Assembly: GCF_006345805.1 (NCBI RefSeq) | Contig: NC_043000.1 | Coordinates: 65,968,001 to 66,032,000, forward strand | Source of the DNA: Octopus sinensis | Taxonomy: Eukaryota | DNA: 64,000 bases | Reading direction: 5' to 3' | In this document: piece by piece, positions 10,260-35,435 of the stretch | How the letters are laid out: the number at the start of each line of letters is the position of its first letter | How positions within the stretch are numbered: position 1 is the first letter of the stretch | Made by a program: the position numbers and the translations under genes | The notes under the pieces: generated by a model | The model's database searches: none | The model's input: the letters and a program-made list of their open reading frames with translations, nothing else | What the model was told of the DNA's origin: nothing

Positions 10260-11229
10260 ATAAACATAAAATATCCCACCGAACTTAAATTTAGACAAAT
10301 CGTAGCAGGCCCGAACTCTTAAACACACGGACTGAGCAACTTTTTAGATATATTACTGAAACCTATTTTAAAATACATGCCAAGTCTTGTGAGGGACGAC
10401 CTGGACCTGTTAAATTACCTTCCAAAATCCATAAACAATGATACCACTATTGTATCTTTTGATGTGGTAAACCTATATATCACAATCCCACACCAATATG
10501 GACTAGAGGCAATAAATTTCTGGCTTGAAAAGTTCCCTCATGAAATTGTGGACAGTATTGAAAAGAGTTTCATCACTGAAGGATTAAAGTTTATCCTCTA
10601 AAATAACTTTTTTGACTTCAATGGAAATATCTAAAATCAAATATCTGGGACTGGGATGTGAACAAAAGTTGCTCCGACGTACACTAATCTATCCATGGCA
10701 TACATGGAGGTTCAGGTATATGAACAATCTAAATTAATATATGGCTTGAACTTCTACAAACATCTACTAGAAAACTGGAAACGTTACTTAGATGACTGCT
10801 TTATCCTATGGACGAACACATTTAAACAACTTATAGATTTCAAAAATCTAATCAACAGTATAAACAATAATATTAACTTTACCATGGAATACAGTAAAAC
10901 TCAACTACCATTCCTGGATATACTAATCATCAAAAGAGATAAGATCATTCAAACAGATATTCACTACAAACAAACAGATTCTAAACAATACTTACTATTC
11001 TCCTCATGCCATCCCAAACACACGAAGTATAATAGCCCCTTTAATCTAGCAAGAAGAATCTGCACAATTGTCTCAAAGCCTGAAACTCGCAATAAAAGAC
11101 TCCAGGAACTAAAACAAGTACTACTTTAAAGACAATATCCATTTATGCTAATAGACAACGAAATGGAACGTGTCGAGGCGAAAAACGCTCCAGATACATC
11201 CAATAATTTACCTTTTATTACAACACACA

Positions 11230-11545
11230 GGAGTACTCCGTCGGTTACGACGACGAGGGTCCCAGCTGATACGATCAACGGAACAGCTTGCTTGTGAAAT
11301 TAACGTGCAAGTGGCTGAGCACTCCACAGACACGTGTACCCTTAACGTAGTTCTCGGGGAGATTCAGCTTGACACACAGTATGACAAAGCCGGCCCTTTG
11401 AAATACAGGTACTACTCATTTTGCCAGCTGAGTGCAACGTGAAATAAAGTGTCTTGCTGAAGGGCACAACGCGTGGCCGGGAATTTAACTCATGACCTTA
11501 CGATTGTGAGCTGAATGCTCTAACCACTATGCCACGCGCCTTCAC
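11230..11545 (-). mobile_element. tRNA-derived SINE (V-domain-like) inserted in PLE1
   Basis: Minus-strand head GGCGCGTGGCATAGTGGTTAGAGC...GAGTTAAATTCCC and core GTGCCCTTCAGCAAGACACTT; 10-bp TSD acaacacaca/acaactcaca (11220-11229, 11546-11555); removing it restores PFITTHNPRN. Confidence 0.88.
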
Positions 11546-12707
11546 ACAACTCACAACCCAAGAAACATAGAGGTTTACAATATTATCCACCAGAACAACC
11601 CACCACTAAAACAAGACCCAAGAATGAAACAAGTATTCGAAGTACACAAAATAATCAAAAGTAAAAGACAATCAAGGTCCCTCAAAAATTTCCTCACAAG
11701 TGCTGAATTACCTCCCGCAATTCCTACACCAACAGTCAAAAAGTGTGGCCGCCCCAATTGCAGGACCTGCATCAACCTTATTGAAGACACAACATACAAA
11801 TTCAAATCAGGACAGACTTTTACCGTAAAAAATCATTTTACATGTTCTTCAAGGAATTTAATATACGCTATCAAATGTCAAGGATGTAATTAAGATTACA
11901 TAGGTCAAACAAAGCTTACTCTAAGAAATAGACTAACCATTCACTGACAACAAATACGAGACCCCAGTACTAGACAGATCCCACTGAATGGTCACATGGA
12001 CATATGTGCAAAAAATAAGTCCCCCAAATTCCAGGTCTTCCCACTCTACCTATGTTCAGCGAATACCACAGATGAAGCACAGATAAACAAAGAAAATACT
12101 TTCATACAAACCAAGACTTAACAAACTTTAACAGAGTACTTACACATCTATTCACACACAAAATTCATTCTGCCACTTATCATGAAGAAGCTACACAGCT
12201 AGCAACCTAAATTTTAACCATTACACTACATACAAACGATTCCTGGCCACTCTCCCACTAGACAGATTAAATTTGGTCTGTCTTGATTATAACTAAACAT
12301 GTTCACTCAATCGTGTCGGCCCTCTTTTTAGGCGCAAAATATACTGTCACGTGACACTAACGCACGGACAGAGCGGAAACGTTCAAAAGTTATAAACTGG
12401 ATCATGTGTCCATACCCTACAAACACTTGACAGAAAACATTCAGAGCATCGATTGTTTGGACTTGTTCAGTCAACCGTATTAGCCTTAACTTATGACGCC
12501 AAACATAGTCATTTGATACTAATACACGGACATAGCGGGGAACCTACACAAATTTCTAAGACCAGTCATGTGACTATCCTCTATCAATCAAATCCTATTC
12601 AAAACATATATTGATTTGGCCATGAACTCCTTATAAAAAGAGGCTAAACTTCAAACAATAGTCAGAAGCAAGACAGCTGCGACATAAGCCATATCGTTCT
12701 ATTTAAA

Positions 12708-12746
12708 CTTTTTGAAAATCAGCGTAAAATGTAAAACCGGTTAAAG
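12708..12746 (+). ncRNA. Degenerate minimal hammerhead ribozyme (U3:A8 variant, G12 lost)
   Basis: CUUU-UUGAAAA-U[CA...UG]U-AAAA-CCGG-UU-AAAG at the PLE1 3' end. Confidence 0.55.
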
Positions 12747-12978
12747 CTTCAAATATTTTCACTATTCTCAGTGCATTTTCAACTTCTATTTTCTATATAT
12801 ATATACTTTATTTAAAGCAGCAGAAAATGCAACAAAATCTGTTACTCTGAGTTTCTCAGAGTAACAGATTTTGTTGAATTTTCTGCTGCTTTAAATAAAG
12901 CATATTACTCTACCACTGGTATTTGAGTACTCTTTTTTCCACCTTGTTTCACATTATATGTTTACTCCGGTATATATA

Positions 12979-13021
<43 letters not shown>

Positions 13022-13074
13022 ATATATATGAAAAAGGGTTTGAAAATGAAGAGGTCTTTTAAATATGTTAATGG

Positions 13075-13114
13075 TTTGACCGGTTTCACTTTTTAATAAA
13101 AAGATTATCAAAAG
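13075..13114 (-). ncRNA. Minimal hammerhead ribozyme (U3:A8 variant) in a solo PLE terminal repeat
   Basis: UUGAUAA-U[CUUUUU/AUU/AAAAAG]U-GAAA-CCGG-UC; stem I weak. Confidence 0.65.
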
Positions 13115-13975
13115 TAAAATGTAAAGCTTTGTATAAGCTTTGTTGTGTTAAAAACCGGTTATCATAGTTGTATTAAAATACAATTATACAGTCTTTGATA
13201 ATGATTAAAAAATAGAATCTTTGACAATGATAAGAAAATGTTAAGATGGGCTTTTTGTTGAAACAGTTTACATGAAAGTGTTCAAAATAGGTAGTAAAAT
13301 AAATTTATAATTATTTTAAGTTCATATATATATATATATATATATATAGTAAAGTTTATTTGCCAACAAAATGTGGCAGTCCTACACAGGACGATGTTAC
13401 TACTGTTTAGCCCTATAGAAACATCTTTTCCGGCTTACTACTGACACAGTTTGTGTCCGTATAGTATGAGCAAGAGAGGTTATCGCTCCCATCTCTAGCC
13501 TTCGTGATACTCACAAACCTAAGTTTCTGGGTTGTTTCCCGTCTTCTGTGTGAGACAATCACAGGCTACTGATGAAGGATTATTCGATTTGCTCATACTA
13601 TATATTTTTTAAAGCGACACACAGTCGTTGATCTCCTAAAGAAGGAATCAACTAAATCTCTGAGCGAGAGATAAGCAGTACCAGTACCGAACAGTACAGT
13701 TTATTTGCCAACAAAATGTGTATTTATGTGTGCGTGTGTGTGTGTGTGTCTGTGTTTGTCCCCGCTCCATCACTTGACAACCGATGGTGGTGTGTTTATG
13801 TCCCCATAACTTAGAGGTTCGGCAAAACATCGATAGAATAAGTATTGGGCTTACAAAGTATAAGTCCTGGGTTCGATTTTTTCGACTAAAACCCTTTGAG
13901 GCGGTGCTCCAGGATTGCCACAGTCAAATGACTGAAACAAATAAAAGAATAAAAGTATATATATATATATATATA

Positions 13976-14760: not shown

Positions 14761-14892
14761 TATATAACTTTTTTTGATAAGGTTCATTTCAGGAACTGAA
14801 ACATGTTATAATGTATATATAAAAATTAAAAATTGTATAATACAGCAGCATTTTCGAACTTCATTTTTTACAAATATATATATATATATATA

Positions 14893-24929: not shown

Positions 24930-26660
24930 AGGAGGAGAATTCGGAAAAAAACAAAAGACGAAGAGGGGTGGTGTAGACAAAAAACAGATGTATTAGTTTA
25001 ACGCTCGGGAAGTGAAAAAGTCTTTAACGTTTCGAGCCTACGCTCTTCCACAGAAAGGAACACAGAAAGAAACAAGGAGAGAAAATAAAGAATGTGTAGT
25101 GGCGAATGCCGGACAGAGGGGTCACACAGGAGAGCTAGGAAGAAGGGGAGATAATAAAATAGTGGTAATCCCAAAACGGAAGGTGCACGTGCGCGTATAT
25201 AAGAGAGCATGTATGTGCGTGTGGAAGAGGGCTGGTGACCTTGACGTGTGTGTGTATTTGTGGGTGTGTGAATGATGGTGTGGGGCTGGAAAGTGGTCAG
25301 TGCTAGTGTATGCGTGGTGGTGTGATGTGTGTGGTATGGTATGGTGGTGTATGGGATGGTGATGTGGTGTGGTGGTGTTGTGACGCGGGGGAGGCGAGAG
25401 TGGTGAAAGCAAGGGTGAGGTGTGGGTTAGGTTGAGGGTAGGGGTAGAGGTGGGGTATGTGGGAGTGGGTGTAAGGGATGCGGTAGGTGGGATGGGATGG
25501 ATAGGGAAGGTGGGGTTGGATTGTATAGGGATGGGGTTACGAGGGAGGGGTGAGGATGAAGGGAGAGGGAGAAGGGAGAAGGTGGGTAGGAGTGAAGAGA
25601 AGAGAGAAGCAGAGTAGGAATGAAGAGAAGTAGGAGTCGGAGCAAGAGAGGAGAGGTGGGTGGGGGAAGTAGGTTTGACAGGGAGAGAGGATAGGGGAGA
25701 AGAATTAGATGAAGAGGGTAGAAGAGTTGAGCTCATGTGGCGCAAAGGAGCAAAGAGAGAAGATTAATCCCTGTTCACAGCGAAAACGGGAGTCCGGATG
25801 GCCCCTGTGCAAGGACAATCCGAAAACAGACAGGTGTTGGAAAGAGTGACTGGTAGAGCAGAAATGGAGCGACATCGGGGTGTCATTGCCGAGGCGGATG
25901 TCTCGGAGGTGTTCCGCAAACCGGTCAGCCAAGCAGCGTCCCTTTTGCTCGATGTATAGAGATGAGAAAAGAGGTAGCAGTAGATGCAGTAGATGACATT
26001 TGTAGAAGTGCAGATGAAGGAGTCAGTGATATGATAGGGTCGATGATGGGTGCCGGTAAGGAGAGGGTGGTGATGGAGAAGTAAGGGCAAGTGCGGCAGC
26101 GTGGGAGGGAGCAGGGGAACGAACCGGGTTGGGAGGTTGGGTTAGGGAAGTAGCTGTAGACCAAGAGGTCTCGTAGATTGTGGGCTCGTTTGAAGAGGGG
26201 AAGAGTCAGCTAGGGAAGATGTGCGAAGTGGAGGATTCTGACTGGTGTCGCCGGAAGGCTCGGAGAATGGTGCGTTGGAAAGGTAAGGTGGTGGGGTGGT
26301 AGGTGAGAGGAAACGGGAGACGGGAGACGGCGGGGTGGGTGCGGGGGAGAGAGCAGATGCACGGTCCTCGGAATGTGCTCTGGCCAGGGCGATGTGGAGG
26401 GTGGTGAGGGGATATCCACGTAAGATGAAGTGGCGAGCCTTGAGTTGAGACTGAGTTTCAGTGTCATGGTCGACACTGCAGAGCCTGCATAGACAGAAGA
26501 ATTGGAAATAGGGGGTGGAAATCCTGGTGTGTTTAGGGTGGGAGGAGAAGTTGAGACATGAGTGTAAGTCTGTGTGTTTGTAGTGGATGGAGGTGGTGAG
26601 AGTGGAGTGGTGAATCCTGACCAAAATGTTAAGAAAGGAGAGAAAGAGCAATAACCCACA
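24930..26660 (-). mobile_element. Penelope-like element 2 (C-rich), 5'-truncated
   Basis: TSIHYKHTD...NFSSHPKH, GYP, FPCSLPRCRTCP, FICTSTNVIYCI, ADRFAEHLRDI...HF; hammerhead in the terminal repeat. Confidence 0.88.
25022..25057 (-). ncRNA. Minimal type-I hammerhead ribozyme (A6U variant)
   Basis: CUUU-CUGUGGA-A[GAGC/GUAG/GCUC]-GAAA-CG-UU-AAAG. Confidence 0.7.
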
Positions 26661-26980
26661 AACCGGTCCACAGACGTTTCTTTGTGTTGGATGGGGGTGC
26701 TGAGCTTCCCTGTTCGAAAATATAAGGATATTGTGTCGTATAGCCAGCTGCAAACGACGTTTCCTGGGGCTAAACAACAGTATCATTCGTCCCATCCAGG
26801 ACTACCACACTATGTTGGCAAATAGTCTTTACTTTAAAATACTGTTACTGAATATCTCTCTTTGAGAGATTTAGAAATAATAATGTTTCTATTTAGATAT
26901 GTATGTGTGTGTGTGTATGAGCAGACAGTGAAGACCTTGGAGTTTTAAAATGCAACCGTAAATGTAGATAATGTCACATT

Positions 26981-27906: not shown

Positions 27907-28780
27907 CCTCATATGTGGGAAAACATGTTTGTGGAGTTGTTAGCTAACTCCTCCTACATCATTTTATCGATTTTGATTAAACTTGACACGTGAGTAGAAC
28001 TCATGTCTGGAAACCTCATGGCATACTCAGATTATTGAAAAAAATTGATAATAGGGCCCCTGGAAGGGATCCTTATATATAGCTAATATATTTTATTTTA
28101 AAAACCAAGGGAAATAATCCATTCGCCTCTATATATAGCCAAGGGTAATAACCCATTCATTTTCCTAAATTATTAGGTAAAAATGAAACTGAGTATACTT
28201 ATTTCTTAGTATTTGAACTGTTAGAGTTATTTTCGCAATTTATCCAGTTCAGCCCTTAAACAATAGTATTTTCCTAAACAATAGATCCACTTATTTCGGT
28301 TAGTGACTTATTCACGAATATACTCACACTAGCGTCCCTGAGGATAATATTCTCTGGGAACGAACAAAAGCCCTTTTCAGAGTTATCTACTTTGAATTGT
28401 TATCATCTCATATCTGTTTAGCCTGTTATTATGTAACGATTTTAGTATACATACCTTATTAGCATTTCCTCCTAAGTTCTATATACTCTGGGAACGCATT
28501 AAAGCCCTTTTCGAGGCTACTTAATTTGAATTGTTTCTATCGGGTAACTAATTTCATGCTATTACATAACTGACTTCACAATTTGGGTATTCCTAACTTA
28601 TTGGAAATTCCTACAAACAAGATCCTGTGTAAGACAGTTCGGTATTCTCTGTAAATGCACAAAAATCGTTTTAAGGGCAACATACTTTGTATTATTGTTT
28701 TTGGATTAGTGAAACAATTATGAGAACAGAAACAAGGGATAAGCCCCGCTTTCCCGGGAATTGTTGGGTACGTCAGCTCG
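27907..28780 (+). mobile_element. Non-autonomous Helitron/DINE-like element
   Basis: 3' end CCCGGGAATTGTTGGGTACGTCAGCTCG|T resembles the Helitron end at 18712-18739; internal repeats; between (TA)n tracts. Confidence 0.6.
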
Positions 28781-29269
28781 TATATATATATACGCTACCC
28801 CCTATTCCTCCCCTTCATCGAACCCACCCTCGCTCGCACCTCCCGCCTCCTCATCCGTGCCGCCATCCGCTCCATCCGCCCTCTCCTTCACTCCCTTGAC
28901 CACCAACTTCCCCAAGCTTACCTCCTCCTCTCCTCCCTCTGCCCACCACTCTTCACCCAATCTATTCTCCGCTTCATTCTTAATCTCAACCACCAACTCC
29001 ACAATTTCCTCACACACACAAAAAACAAAAAACTCCATCACCTCCTCAACCCTTCACCCCCTTCCCCTTCCCCTACATCCTCCCCTCCTGCTCCCTCGAC
29101 TCCCTCCGTTCCCGCACCCACCACCCCATCTCCCCCTTCCCCCTCCACGGACCCACACACACCCCACCCTGACCTTCCTACGCCTAACCCTTCTTCACCC
29201 AACCACCCCTACCCTCCTCCTCACACCTCTGCACCCCCTCTTCCTGACCCCAGTCATCCCACCACTCCG

Positions 29270-31460
29270 CTTCCTCGCACTTTTGTCACTATACCCCCAA
29301 TTTCCCCCTCTCCGTTGCCGAGCGCTCTCTCCTCAGTAAGGGACTCCGCTTCACGCCACTCACGCGCCACTGTGATGAATTCGAGACTCGGACTGACGTC
29401 AACCAGTTCCTGCGCCGCCTCAAACTTCGCGCATACTTCCACGCGTCCCCGCAGCGTCACAACAATCAGGATTGCCTTTTGGAGCTGGGGCGCCGTCCAT
29501 CCATCTGGACGCCGCCCCCAGGCCTATTCAGTAGCCTAGATTTGTTCGTGAATGACTGCAACGCGCTGGTCCACCGGTTCAACTTTAAACAAAGACCCCT
29601 CCGAGACAACCTCACTCGGGCTGAATCGATTGCCCTTCGCCACCTCCGCCGCCGCAATGACATTGTCATCAAACCGGCGGATAAAGGCGGAGCAGTGGTG
29701 GTGTGACGCGCGGACCTAAACAGGGAGGAAGCGCTCAGCCAGCTTCAAAATCCCCTTTTCTATCGCCTCCTCCCCTCTGATCCCACCTCTTCCTGCCAAC
29801 AGCGAGTGTCCTCCACCATCCACGACCTCATCTCCTCTTATGCTCCCCCCCCACCGCCACCAACCTCATCGTCCGCACACCCCGCACCTCCACCATCTAT
29901 TTCCTTCCCAAAATCCATAAACCCCAAAACCCTGGCCGTCCCATCGTGTCCGCATGTAATTGCCCCACTGAACACATATCCCTATACCTCGACCGCATCC
30001 TGTCCCCCTTAGTCGCAGCCCTCCCATCCCACATACACGACACCAACCACGCCCTCCGTCTCTTCAATTCCTTTTCCTTCCCTTCCAGCCCCTCTCACCT
30101 CCTCTTCACCCTTGACGTAAAATCCCTGTATACGGTCATTCCCCATAACGACGGTCCCCTAGCCCTCCAACACTTCCTCGACCGTCGTCCCGACTTCACC
30201 CCCCAGCACCCCCACCCTTCTCCGCCTGGCTGAGCTCGTCCTCACCCTCAACTGTTTCACGTTCGCCGGGAAAACGTACGAACAAGTGTCCGGGGCGCGA
30301 TGGGAACGAGAATGGGCCCTAATTTCGCCAATCTCTTTCTTGGGTACATTGAGGCCCAAGTATTCTCCCAATTCTCCGGACCGACCCCCGAACTATACGG
30401 TCGCTATATAAACGACTGCATAGGCGCCACCTCCCTTTCCCGCGAACTTCTCAACCAATTCATCTCTTTCCTCTCCAACTTTCACCCCTCTCTACAATTC
30501 ACTTCTACCATCTCCAACACCTCTGTCAACTTCCTCGATATCTCTCTCAGCATCGACCACCCCTCCCACTCTCTCACCACCTCCGCCTTCTTTAAACCCA
30601 CGGATTCCCACCTCTATCTCAACTTCTCCTCCTCCCACCCCTTCCACACCAAACGGGCCATCCCATACTCCCAGTTCCTCCGCTTCCGACGTTTGTGCAG
30701 CCGCGACCAGGATTTCGAGACCCAATCTCAATACCTGGCCCGCCTGTTCAGGAACCGAGGGTACCCACCTACACTAATCTCAATTGCCATCGCCCGCGCC
30801 CGTCGCATCGACCGCACCACCGCCCTTTCTCCTTCCTCTCACCCACCCCACCCCAACCGCACCCCTTTCCCCTCCTTTTCCACCCCTCTACTCTACCCCT
30901 TCGTCGAAAGATACTACGTGCCTTCCGTCGCCTCCAGCTCGATCCCACGACCCGCCCCATTTTCCCCAACCCACCTCTGTCCTCCTTCAAACGAGCCCGG
31001 AATCTACGCGACCTCCTGGTCCATAGCACCCTCCCTTCTTCCCCCTCAGCTCCACACGGATCTTTCCCGTGCTCTAGATCTCGCTGCAACACCTGCCCCT
31101 TCATCACCAACACCACTGCTGTCACCGGCTCCAACCAGCGAACTGTACGTATCAGACATTCTTTTACGTGCACTTCGTCTGGCCTCATATACTGTATTAA
31201 ATGCAACCTTTGCGGAATGCTGTATATAGGACAGACGGGACGCCGTTTGTCTGATCGATTCGCCGAACATCTGAGGGATGTTCGCCTACGGTCCCTTTCT
31301 CCCGTCGCACGTCACTTCTGCTCGGCCAACCAATCCTCCGATGACATCTCAGGGTTTGGTCTCGCCCCACACAACGGTCTTCCGCATTCCAGGCTCCACT
31401 TGGAGCAACGCTTCATCTTTACTTTACAAACCATTACCCACACGGACTCAACACAGCCCC
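29270..31460 (+). pseudogene. PLE3 reverse transcriptase-GIY-YIG endonuclease polyprotein (frameshifted)
   Basis: ORFs 29479-29706, 29946-30233, 30300-31229 and 30695-31876 carry consecutive RT/EN motifs. Confidence 0.9.
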
Positions 31461-31519
31461 CTCCTCTTAGTCTGCGCTCCACTTCTCTTTCCCCCCCCTT
31501 TTTTCCGAACACCCCCACA

Positions 31520-32585
31520 TATCCACTTCCAACACACCTACATACATGCATACATACATACACACACAAACAAACATACACATACATACACACATACATA
31601 CATACACACATACGTACACACATACCTACATACACACACACATACACACACAAATACATACATACACACACACACATACATACACACACACATGCATACA
31701 CACACACATACGCACGTACGCATATACATGTGCACGCATACGCGGACGCACACATACGTACATACATACTTACCTACATACGTACACACACGCGCGCATG
31801 CACACGTGTGCGCGTGCACGCATACGTGCATGCGCGCGCGCGTTTGGGAGCAACACCTGCATGTGTTTGTACCTAGGCGCACGCCCTTTCTTTCCTTTTT
31901 TTTGGTTGAGGGATTGATGGAGCTCGGTTTTTTTGGTGTGGTTGTCTGAGGGTTCGCGGGCGCGCTCCTGGGGTGCGGCCGGCCCGATATGCGTGCGTTG
32001 TGTATGTGTGTGTTGTTGTGTGTGTGTGCGAGCGTGTGTGTTGCGTGTGTATACATACATACACACATACATGCTTGCATGCACGCGCGCACACATACTT
32101 ACCTACATACATACACGCACACACACTTACACACATACATACATACACACATACACACACACATACATAGCTACACACATACACACATACACACTATACA
32201 TACATACACAAGACATACATACGTACAGACATACACCCATACACTCACACATACATACATACACACATACATACACACCCACATACACACGCACACGCAC
32301 ACATACACACACACACACTCGCATACATTCATACTTTCATTCGTACATACCACATACATACACACACACACAAACATACACATACACACACACATACATA
32401 CACACATACATATATACACACACGCACGCACACATACATACACACACACACATACACACACATACATACACACACATATACGCACATACACAAATACATA
32501 CACACATGCATACACACACACACATACGCACATGCATGCATACATACATACATACACACACCCCCATACACACATATACGCATGC

Positions 32586-34044: not shown

Positions 34045-35320
34045 ATTACGGAGATGTACTCGCATAGCAAGTAATTTGATCTGAGATCGTGTGCTGAAAC
34101 GAAAACAATTGCAGCGTGGAAGGTGCTTATAAGCCATTTAAGAAACACACAAAAGCCGTTCGATTCACTCCAACATTTGAGATGCAGCACGGATTTTTGT
34201 CAGTGAACAGGTCGCGGATTTTAGCGACGAAAATATTTTGACAAATTAAACTTAAATGTTGGAGTGAATCGAACGGCTTTTGTGTGTTTCTTAAATGGCT
34301 TATAAACACCTTCCACGCTGCAATTGTATATATATATATATATTTATATGTGTGTGTGTGTGTGGTGTGTGTGTGTGTGATGTGTGTGTGTATGTATGTA
34401 TATGTAGTGTGTGTGTATGGCCCGCACACACGCGTAGACGCGCACGGGCGGACACGCATATATACACACACCATCCTACCCCAAAAAATTCTTTAAACAA
34501 CACACATCTATTTTCGCCACCCTGGAACCATTCAAAAACAGCCCCCACACACACGCAGACGCTTGTATACGTGTGTGTGCACGCACACAGGGGCACGCAC
34601 ACTCACACCAGCCTCACCTCCATACAGGCACATATATACACACGCAGCACCATGTCAAATACCATCCACACTCATGCATGCGTACACACGCACGCACACA
34701 CGCACACACGCACGCGCACACACACGCACACACAACACCATGACAACTACACACACTTGACAAACAGACGTCATTGACCAAATATTACAGGCACACAGAC
34801 ACATCTATTCACACACACGCAGAGAGACACACATACTCACCTCATCCTAACCCCAAAATCATTGATGCTTGAAGGAAAGCCATAAACAGAAAAAAACGGG
34901 TACATCTTTCTCAATTCAACATTTCTGCTAAAACGGACAGGTCAGTAAACAAACTCGCCTTGAATTCATAATATTCTGTACTGACCCTGAGATGTATAAT
35001 ATATTCATTTTAATCTTTTCTGCCCATTTTTTCAAATATTCTCATCATACTGTTGTACTTCCTTATGTCCTTAACATGTCCTTTTTACCAAAGACTGTAT
35101 ATATACATGTAATGTGGCAATTTGCAACAACCAATAATTAACGCAACCAAACTTCCAATAATATATTTGTTTTATTCTTTTCTGCCCATTTTTTCAAATA
35201 TTCTCATCACACTGTTGCACTTCTTTATGTCCTTAACATGTCCCTGTTACCAAAGACTATATATATACATGTAATGTGGCAATTATGTAAAAAACTTTTT
35301 TGAATTCATAATATTCTATG

Positions 35321-35365
35321 TTACTTTTGACAATCTTTTTCCAAAGAGTGAAACCGGTTAAGTAA
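35321..35365 (+). ncRNA. Minimal type-I hammerhead ribozyme (U3:A8 variant)
   Basis: UUACUU-UUGACAA-U[CUUUU/UCCA/AAGAG]U-GAAA-CCGG-UU-AAGUAA; perfect 6-bp stem I. Confidence 0.75.
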
Positions 35366-35435
35366 ATAAACATCTTTTAAATTGGATTTTCAAACCTTCT
35401 TTCGTATAAATTTATATATATATAATATATATATA

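What the first reader, a model, noticed from the sequence alone, without database searches (positions are those of the whole stretch)
35321..35365. Hammerhead variant with U3:A8 covariation and a U-U pair closing stem II
Seen: the copies at 35327 (UUGACAA), 13105-13111(-) (UUGAUAA) and 12712 (UUGAAAA) all replace C3 and G8 with U and A together. All three also place an unpaired U on each side of stem II instead of the usual G10.1:C11.1 pair. Their stem I and II sequences differ yet stay paired. Established: C3-G8 is a tertiary Watson-Crick pair, so U3:A8 is compensatory. Inference: a selected, family-specific core that a CUGANGA pattern search would miss.
Basis: partly seen in the sequence, partly recalled or inferred. 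Interest (0 to 1): 0.72.

Follow-up and report, generated by a model that had tools for sequence, protein, structure and literature searches.

The report
Variant hammerheads in Penelope retrotransposon ends
These are real copies of a small hammerhead (self-cutting RNA) motif carried at the ends of Penelope-type jumping genes in an animal genome; their two unusual base choices are the rule for thousands of copies here, but both were already published, and cutting is only predicted.

Summary
The motif at 35321-35365 (+) is there exactly as described: stem I, UUGACAA, U, a 5-bp stem II, U, GAAA, CCGG, U, U, then stem I. It is one of about 7,900 genome copies with a U3:A8 core and an ACCGGU helix III. 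Only 166 copies have the canonical C3:G8 core, 281 have C3/A8 and 167 have U3/G8. So the family consensus is U3:A8, and these are not decayed CUGANGA copies.

U on both sides of stem II is the consensus of the subfamilies that hold these three copies: 1,488 of 1,567 copies. It is not general. About half of all U3:A8 copies keep G10.1:C11.1.

Only copy 1 is intact. Copy 2 has lost most of stem I. Copy 3 has G12 changed to A and a broken stem II.

All three lie in the 3' regions of Penelope-like elements (reverse transcriptase plus GIY-YIG endonuclease), about 50 nt before a (TA)n insertion site. They have the 1-bp helix III with a palindromic loop that defines the dimer-acting minimal hammerheads of these elements.

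Both oddities are in print. U3-A8 is in Perreault 2011 and, for Penelope elements, in Cervera and de la Pena 2014. U10.1-U11.1 is in Perreault 2011. Earlier notes of this scan report the same variant in this genome and in others.

Verdict: a real, well-supported new member of a known kind. Cleavage is untested.

The parts
35321..35365 (+). Copy 1, the only intact one: a minimal type I hammerhead motif. Stem I 5' strand 35321-35326. U3-A9 (UUGACAA) 35327-35333. U10.1 35334. Stem II 35335-35339 paired with 35344-35348, loop 35340-35343. U11.1 35349. G12-A14 35350-35352. A15.1 35353. Palindromic loop CCGG 35354-35357. U16.1 35358. U17 35359. Predicted cleavage after 35359. Stem I 3' strand 35360-35365.
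   Evidence: Sequence read. Covariance-model hit at 62.1 bits, but the model was built with this copy in it. Identical or near-identical motifs are listed many times elsewhere in the genome.
34758..35408 (+). 3' terminal region of an 'A' subfamily Penelope-like element, 5'-truncated, carrying copy 1. It ends 49 nt after the predicted cleavage site, directly at a (TA)n microsatellite.
   Evidence: BLAST against loci L033, L015, L012 and L035 at 76-96% identity. In read laying, other copies' contigs diverge from the window at 35408 (table 7).
13070..13120 (-). Copy 2, 'B' subfamily: UUGAUAA, U, 6-bp stem II (CUUUUU/AAAAAG), U, GAAACCGGU, C17. Most of stem I is lost.
   Evidence: Covariance-model alignment shows three non-pairs in stem I.
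12970..13325 (-). 'B' subfamily Penelope-like 3' fragment carrying copy 2. It points towards copy 3 across a shared (TA)n tract.
   Evidence: BLAST against L022, L014, L023 and L020 at 76-90% identity.
12703..12750 (+). Copy 3, 'C' subfamily, decayed: UUGAAAA core kept, G12 changed to A, stem II broken, stem I 6 of 7 pairs.
   Evidence: Intact relatives read UUGAAAAUCAGUGUAAACUGUGAAACCGGU.
10273..12805 (+). Decayed Penelope-like element that owns copy 3. Reverse transcriptase (YLDDCFILW), a CGRPNCRTC zinc-finger-like linker and the start of a GIY-YIG endonuclease lie in 10273-12133, interrupted by another repeat at about 11235-11544. The 3' region with the hammerhead follows in 12225-12805.
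   Evidence: BLAST against L031, L033 and L032 ORFs at 70-73% and against L016, L007 and L028 3' regions. ORF translations. Pfam RVT_1 and GIY-YIG matches on the homologous L033 and L031 ORFs.
14765..14815 (+). Fourth hammerhead motif, not in the finding: UUGAUAA, stem II GGUUC/GAACU, GAAA, CAUG, U (helix III palindrome ACAUGU). A (TA)n tract follows about 60 nt downstream.
   Evidence: Covariance-model hit at 15.2 bits, E = 0.32. Sequence read. The same motif is listed many times in the genome, and the pattern has 2,333 matches against 219 in the control.

Best explanation
The three copies are minimal type I hammerhead motifs in the 3' regions of Penelope-like retrotransposons, and they would cut their transcript only when two copies pair through the palindromic ACCGGU to build helix III.

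Shown:
- The motif is a genome-wide family whose consensus core is U3:A8.
- In these subfamilies the 10.1/11.1 position is U.U.
- Stems I and II covary.
- The motif sits downstream of reverse transcriptase plus GIY-YIG ORFs, about 50 nt before the insertion end at (TA)n.
- Insertions come as head-to-head inverted pairs, with a short tail at one end.

Inferred:
- U3:A8 replaces the C3:G8 tertiary pair without loss of the fold.
- U.U is a tolerated substitute for G10.1:C11.1.
- The RNA likely cleaves slowly, after U17 (35359 in copy 1), in tandem or paired transcripts.
- Because genomic copies run 49 nt past the cleavage site, the copied template was probably uncleaved at that site, or was longer than one unit.

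Copies 2 and 3 are dead relics.
For: Family size and consensus:
- 7,909 U3/A8 copies, against 166 C3/G8, 281 C3/A8 and 167 U3/G8.
- U on both flanks in 1,488 of 1,567 A+B subfamily copies.

Covariation:
-, on 30 rows that I chose out of the 55 unique motifs: 81.1% of cells paired, against 34-49% with the partners slid. Covariation score 0.599, against at most 0.171. All 7 stem I pairs and all 6 stem II pairs show changes on both sides.
-, all 55 unique motifs, counted from fixed anchors: 398 of 495 stem cells paired (80.4%), against 40.7% and 46.7% when slid.
- the 3:8 pair is Watson-Crick in 277 of 300 copies of one subfamily, in two forms.

Penelope context:
- RT (RVT_1, E = 2e-5, below Pfam's cut-off) and GIY-YIG (E = 5e-5, above the cut-off) upstream of the motif in L031 and L033.
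- the same arrangement in the window.
- inverted pairs 0.7-6 kb apart. In each of 5 pairs that I looked at (L029/L030, L031, L032, L033, L035), one end runs straight into (TA)n and the other carries an extra tail.

Helix III:
- two copies are predicted to pair through the AACCGGUU palindrome.

Literature:
- PMC4209133: minimal hammerheads in Penelope terminal repeats, dimer action, the U3-A8 variant.
- PMC3088659, section 8: natural U3-A8 and U10.1-U11.1; exchanged 3:8 pairs are active in vitro.
- PMC11167929, passages: in a Penelope element, reverse transcription starts downstream of the hammerhead.
Against: - No cleavage data exist for these sequences.
- The nearest-neighbour model does not favour the hammerhead fold of copy 1. 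The double-hammerhead structure scores -10.7 kcal/mol, against a dimer minimum of -20.7. In that minimum the stem I 5' strand plus U3-U4 pairs with the 3' strand of stem II.
- Published Penelope minimal hammerheads cleave poorly in vitro, even as dimers (PMC4209133).
- In the one Penelope element studied biochemically, hammerhead mutants did not change insertion in vitro, and no RNA-seq reads ended at the cleavage site (PMC11167929, passages).
- A lineage with a mismatched C3/A8 core still reached 21 copies.
- G10.1, which these copies lack, is the most conserved stem II position (PMC3088659; PMC4209133).
- Rfam hammerhead models do not score copy 1.
Confidence: 0.8

Rival explanations
1. The motif descends from a hammerhead but is now kept for a non-catalytic job in the 3' region, for example as a fold that the element's reverse transcriptase or endonuclease recognises near the place where copying starts. 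Self-cleavage would then be vestigial or absent.
For: - Insertion ends lie a fixed 49 nt beyond the predicted cleavage site, so the copied RNA was not cut there.
- A more stable alternative fold exists.
- A C3/A8 mismatch lineage amplified to 21 copies.
- In a Penelope element from a lizard, hammerhead mutants did not affect insertion in vitro (PMC11167929, passages).
- Naiad-type Penelope elements proliferate without canonical hammerheads (PMC8557442, passages).
Against: What is invariant across subfamilies is exactly the catalytic set: U4 G5 A6, A9, G12 A13 A14, A15.1-U16.1 and a non-G at 17. The 3:8 partners change together. A protein-binding fold would not by itself require that pattern.
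Confidence: 0.15
2. The copies are randomly decayed canonical CUGANGA hammerheads. On this view C3 to U and G8 to A are independent transition mutations, with G8 possibly lost through CpG decay.
For: Both changes are transitions. When N7 is C, G8 lies in a CpG. Copies 2 and 3 are visibly decayed elsewhere.
Against: U3/A8 outnumbers C3/G8 by 7,909 to 166, and the single-change forms are only 281 and 167. U3:A8 is shared by subfamilies with unrelated stems and with N7 = A, C, U or G.
Confidence: 0.02
3. For subfamily A, stem II is in another register: U10.1 pairs with A, followed by C-G and three U-A pairs, and 'GU' is bulged before G12. There would then be no U.U pair at all.
For: RNAfold prefers this register for the isolated stem II segment of subfamily A.
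Against: Subfamilies B and C cannot form that register, yet they keep U on both flanks.
Confidence: 0.15

Closest known systems
Minimal hammerheads of metazoan Penelope-like elements, including the U3-A8 variant of Schistosoma mansoni Cercyon elements (Cervera and de la Pena 2014, PMC4209133; parts 1-2 of the text read)
   Same: - Type I topology with a long stem II.
- Helix III reduced to A15.1-U16.1 with a palindromic loop.
- Thousands of heterogeneous copies falling into consensus subfamilies full of compensatory changes.
- Location in the terminal repeats of elements with reverse transcriptase plus GIY-YIG.
- Pairs on opposite strands a few hundred bases apart.
- U3-A8 in place of C3-G8.
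   Different: [quoted passage not shown] Here the subfamilies of the finding have U on both sides of stem II, and across the genome 10.1/11.1 varies: G-C, U.U, A-U, G.U and A/C (my hand tally of the first 100 places listed). In this genome U3:A8 is the majority state, not a side family.
Natural core variants catalogued by Perreault et al. 2011 (PMC3088659; section 8 read)
   Same: The paper reports natural covariation of C3-G8 to U3-A8. It also reports hammerheads whose stem II starts with a U10.1-U11.1 mismatch, and notes that U.U supports more cleavage than any other mismatch at that position.
   Different: In the section I read, the two variations are described separately and as rare. It does not say whether any example combines them. 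Here both occur together, as the consensus of about 1,500-2,400 copies of a retrotransposon family.
Animal non-LTR retrozymes (Cervera and de la Pena 2020, PMC7229834, passages; Li et al. 2026, bioRxiv 10.64898/2026.07.22.740005, abstract)
   Same: The same genome holds roughly 357-360-bp tandem units that carry the same kind of hammerhead with the ACCGGU helix III.
   Different: The three copies of the finding are not in short tandem units. They lie in the 3' regions of autonomous-type Penelope elements or their truncated remains.

Membership tests
Hammerhead ribozyme (type I) | Conserved core: U4 G5 A6 N7, A9, G12 A13 A14, A15.1-U16.1, H17 | tested here: met
   Copies 1 and 2 have every one of these. 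Copy 3 fails at G12, which is A. These columns are invariant or nearly invariant in 55 unique motifs.
Hammerhead ribozyme (type I) | Positions 3 and 8 form a Watson-Crick pair (C-G, or a covarying pair) | tested here: met
   U3:A8 in all three copies. Genome counts: 7,909 U/A, 166 C/G, 281 C/A, 167 U/G. 277 of 300 are paired within one subfamily.
Hammerhead ribozyme (type I) | Stems I and II supported by compensatory changes | tested here: met
   81.1% paired against 34-49% when slid, with all 13 stem pairs changing on both sides; 80.4% against 41-47% on all 55 unique motifs.
Hammerhead ribozyme (type I) | G10.1-C11.1 closing pair of stem II | tested here: not met
   U/U in all three copies and in 1,488 of 1,567 A+B subfamily copies. 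This is a published natural exception (PMC3088659, section 8), so it does not exclude membership.
Hammerhead ribozyme (type I) | Site-specific self-cleavage after position 17 | not testable with these tools
   No raw RNA reads were on offer. The runs found are contigs whose RNA status is a guess.
Hammerhead ribozyme (type I) | Match to a curated Rfam hammerhead model at its gathering score | tested here: not met
   0 matches over the window at gathering scores. No hammerhead match up to E = 10 on 35250-35430. A sister-subfamily copy (L050) reaches 22.9 bits on Hammerhead_HH9, against a cut-off of 52. Minimal helix III forms are expected to fall below these models.
Penelope-like element minimal hammerhead | Helix III reduced to 1 bp, with a palindromic 15.2-16.2 or loop sequence | tested here: met
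   A-CCGG-U in all three copies. The fourth copy has A-CAUG-U. Two copies are predicted to pair through the palindrome.
Penelope-like element minimal hammerhead | One unpaired nucleotide between A9 and 10.1 | tested here: inconclusive
   The 5' U could be that nucleotide, but a matching U then sits on the 3' side before G12. The sequence alone cannot separate 'two bulges' from 'a U.U pair'.
Penelope-like element (canonical, C-terminal endonuclease) | Single ORF with reverse transcriptase followed by a GIY-YIG endonuclease, and the hammerhead in the terminal repeat | tested here: met
   L031 and L033: RVT_1 at E = 2e-5 (24.6 bits, below the 29.6 cut-off) and GIY-YIG at E = 5e-5 (23.9 bits, above the 22.6 cut-off), with a YLDDC motif and a CxxC linker in the translations. 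Window 10273-12133 is homologous to these. The ORFs are broken by stops or frameshifts.
Penelope-like element (canonical, C-terminal endonuclease) | Inverted 5'-truncated partner copy, and a short tail at one end only | tested here: met
   Many minus-then-plus pairs 0.7-6 kb apart. In L029/L030, L031, L032, L033 and L035, one end of the pair abuts (TA)n and the other carries an extra ...UAAUCCCACUC tail. This is the signature described in PMC8557442 (passages).

The most novel reading that the evidence does not exclude
In this animal genome the textbook hammerhead core is the exception. At least 10,000 Penelope-type and retrozyme-type hammerheads use U3:A8, against roughly 130 canonical ones net of controls. 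One family of roughly 360-bp units is caught between the two states: 84 C3:G8, 193 U3:A8, and an amplified C3/A8 intermediate of 21 copies. So elements with a mismatched catalytic core kept multiplying. That would mean either that hammerhead catalysis is dispensable for their spread, or that a C.A pair is tolerated at the active site.
Probability: 0.3. Interest if true: 0.5.

Novelty: new member of a known kind. Interest (0 to 1): 0.27.

Why it matters
The finding shows that descriptor searches fixed on CUGANGA and G10.1-C11.1 would miss nearly all Penelope-type hammerheads in this genome. That bears on published statements that some element clades 'lack canonical hammerheads'. The genome also offers a natural series for asking what the hammerhead does for Penelope elements: C3:G8, C3/A8 and U3:A8, and G-C, A-U, G.U and U.U at positions 10.1/11.1. 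The two base changes themselves are already in the literature, so the value lies in scale and in material for experiments, not in a new principle.

Tried and rejected
- RNA evidence for cleavage. The look-up of sequencing runs listed no holder on record as RNA; all 24 runs are Logan contigs whose RNA label is a guess. Laying 4 of them gave no table of molecule ends. Some contigs cross the predicted cleavage site. Nothing can be concluded about expression or cutting.
- Rfam. No hammerhead match for the window at gathering scores, and none for copy 1 up to E = 10.
- Thermodynamic folding of copy 1 does not return the hammerhead fold. I report this as evidence against efficient folding, not against the motif.
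- A column-based pair count on all 55 motifs was dropped, because MAFFT misplaced the 5' strand of stem II. I replaced it with an anchor-based count.
- Polarity of the C3:G8 / U3:A8 switch. The tree of 40 copies that I picked by state has no outgroup. Old long-branch copies are U:A and the C:G copies are young, so my first idea cannot be preferred over the reverse route. That idea was CpG decay of G8 followed by a compensating C3 to U change.
- Lunse et al. 2017 (PMC5785218) is not held. It may describe further core variants.
- I did not assign the elements to a named Penelope clade. The CX4CxxC linker and the (TA)n targets resemble what PMC8557442 says of Neptune/Nematis, but I built no phylogeny.
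- The supplementary figures of PMC4209133 and PMC3088659 were not read. They may show U.U or combined variants.

Full report
**What is in the window.** At 35321-35365 (+) the sequence reads UUACUU / UUGACAA / U / CUUUU-UCCA-AAGAG / U / GAAA / CCGG / U / U / AAGUAA. That is a type I hammerhead layout:
- a 6-bp stem I
- the CUGANGA box written as UUGACAA
- a 5-bp stem II (one G.U) with a U on each side
- GAAA
- a helix III of only A15.1-U16.1 around the palindromic loop CCGG
- U17
- the return strand of stem I

UUGAUAA is at 13111-13105 (-) and UUGAAAA at 12712-12718 (+), each with U on both flanks of stem II and ACCGGU. They are damaged:
- Copy 2 keeps a 6-bp stem II but only 2 bp at the base of stem I.
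- Copy 3 has A in place of G12 and a broken stem II.

A covariance model built from 30 copies finds no further strong match in the window. It does give a weak fourth hit at 14765-14815 (+). This reads UUGAUAA-GGUUC..GAACU-GAAA-CAUG-U.

**More than chance, and not decay.**
- Keeping only the anchor GAAACCGGT and a 10-22 nt gap gives:
  - 7,909 U3/A8 copies (control 84)
  - 166 C3/G8 (control 34)
  - 281 C3/A8 (control 52)
  - 167 U3/G8 (control 39)
- So 93% of these motifs are U3:A8. The single-change forms are at the few-percent level expected from point decay of a U3:A8 consensus.
- The ACAUGU family adds 2,333 more U3/A8 matches (control 219).

**Covariation.**
- U3:A8 is shared by subfamilies whose stems differ. 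Stem II examples are CUUUU/AAGAG, CUUUUU/AAAAAG, CAGU/ACUG, GGUC/GACC, AGUC/GACU, GUCA/UGAC and GAGG/CCUC.
- On an alignment of 30 rows that I picked from 55 unique motifs, 81.1% of cells pair in the hammerhead structure, against 34-49% with the partners slid. The covariation score is 0.599, against at most 0.171.
- I had left out 25 rows, many with poor stems. So I recounted all 55 from fixed anchors: 398 of 495 stem cells pair (80.4%), against 40.7% and 46.7% when slid.
- The cleanest test of the 3:8 pair is within the GAGG/CCUC subfamily: 84 C3:G8, 193 U3:A8, 21 C3/A8 and 2 U3/G8.
- These counts are copies, not independent events. 17 of the 21 C3/A8 copies share one loop sequence.

**The U.U position.**
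- Among copies with stem II CUUUU..AG, U on both flanks occurs in 1,488 of 1,567. So it is the consensus of the A and B subfamilies. The C subfamily (CAGU/ACUG) has it as well.
- It is not general. In my hand tally of the first 100 places listed, the two flanking letters are G..C 49, U..U 25, A..U 11, A..C 8, G..U 4, C..U 2 and A..G 1.
- For subfamily A alone, another register (U-A closing pair with a bulged GU) is possible. It does not fit B or C.

**Context.**
- In L031 and L033 the A-type motif lies downstream of an ORF with reverse transcriptase, a CxxC linker and a GIY-YIG endonuclease. The ORF is broken by stops. A second motif lies in inverted orientation upstream.
- Many genome hits form such minus/plus pairs 0.7-6 kb apart.
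- In five pairs that I inspected, one end abuts (TA)n and the other carries an extra tail.
- In the window, copy 3 lies about 580 bp downstream of a decayed reverse transcriptase/GIY-YIG remnant at 10273-12133.
- Copy 2 belongs to a 350-bp B-type fragment that faces copy 3 across a (TA)n tract.
- Copy 1 closes a 650-bp A-type 3' region that ends 49 nt after the predicted cleavage site, at (TA)n.
- This is the published anatomy of Penelope-like elements: pseudo-LTRs with hammerheads, an inverted truncated partner, a tail at one end, and a bias for microsatellite targets (PMC4209133, text read; PMC8557442, passages).

**How it likely works.**
- With a 1-bp helix III a single copy cannot fold into an active hammerhead. 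Two copies can pair through ACCGGU. A cofold of copy 1 with itself does form the AACCGGUU duplex. This is the dimer mode proposed for these elements (PMC4209133; PMC6765202, passages).
- U3:A8 should preserve the tertiary pair. Exchanged 3:8 pairs are active in vitro according to PMC3088659 (section 8). A C3G/G8C double mutant partly restores cleavage in a Penelope hammerhead (PMC11167929, passages).
- U.U is reported as the best-tolerated mismatch at 10.1/11.1 (PMC3088659, section 8).
- These steps are inferred for the present sequences.
- Against efficient cutting:
  - The modelled double-hammerhead fold of copy 1 is 10 kcal/mol above the dimer minimum.
  - Published Penelope hammerheads are slow.
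  - In the one biochemical study, insertion did not need the hammerhead (PMC11167929, passages).
- Genomic copies extend 49 nt beyond the cleavage site. This fits reverse transcription starting downstream of the hammerhead on RNA that was not cut there.

**Comparison with what is known.** Both unusual features are in print: U3-A8 (Perreault 2011; Cervera and de la Pena 2014, in Penelope elements of Schistosoma) and U10.1-U11.1 (Perreault 2011). My full-text searches for 'U3-A8' and for 'C3-G8' plus 'covariation' each returned only the 2014 paper. Earlier notes of this scan describe the same U3:A8 variant in Penelope and retrozyme contexts, in this genome and in others, and reach the same verdict. 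Three things differ here:
- U3:A8 is the majority state of the genome.
- The 10.1/11.1 pair, called highly conserved in 2014, varies widely.
- The two variants occur together as a subfamily consensus.

**A side observation.**
- The GAGG/CCUC family forms arrays of roughly 357-360-bp units and inverted pairs. It holds both core states and an amplified C3/A8 form.
- I built a tree of 40 copies that I chose by state, with the 7-nt core box removed. It gives a supported U:A clade (13 U:A plus 1 U/G; support 100/98) and a supported C:G clade (6 C:G plus 1 C/A; support 100/99). The other C/A rows are unresolved between them.
- The root is unknown, and the oldest-looking rows are U:A. The direction of change is therefore open.

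**Verdict.** This is a real, abundant, structurally supported Penelope-type hammerhead family with a published core variant. Cleavage and biological role remain untested.

Noticed in passing
window 14765-14815 (+): A fourth U3:A8 hammerhead motif, with helix III palindrome ACAUGU in place of ACCGGU. Its pattern has 2,333 genome matches against 219 in the control, with subfamilies closing stem II by G.U, G-C or A-U.
   Followed up: partly
G000 loci L037-L045, L059, L060, L063, L066-L085: A retrozyme-like family of roughly 357-360-bp tandem units and inverted pairs, with stem II GAGG/CCUC. It holds 84 canonical C3:G8 copies, 193 U3:A8, 21 C3/A8 (17 share one loop sequence) and 2 U3/G8. Nearly all the canonical copies listed read CUGACGA, so G8 lies in a CpG.
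   Followed up: partly
window 28724-31876 (+) and 24998-26801 (-): A GC-rich Penelope-like ORF from a different family: reverse transcriptase, a CSRSRCNTC linker and GIY-YIG (GLIYCIKCNLCGMLYIGQT). An inverted partial copy lies upstream, and about 3.4 kb of TG/TA-type simple repeat (31.4-34.8 kb) follows before the A-type 3' region with copy 1. It shows no nucleotide match to the A-type ORFs.
   Followed up: partly
window 12821-12890: A nearly perfect inverted repeat of about 33 bp (GCAGCAGAAAAUGCAACAAAAUCUGUUACUCUGAG / loop / complement). It lies between copies 3 and 2, next to the (TA)n tract. Part of the region recurs in locus L014.
   Followed up: no
window 35100-35320, and other copies seen in public contigs: Other copies of the A-type 3' region lack about 162 bp (35156-35317) or repeat about 145-162 bp of it. 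This points to an internal tandem duplication that varies between copies (table 5).
   Followed up: no
window 35321-35351: In subfamilies A and B the stem I 5' strand plus U3-U4 (UUACUUUU) is complementary to the 3' strand of stem II plus U11.1-G12. This gives an 8-bp alternative hairpin that excludes the hammerhead fold.
   Followed up: partly
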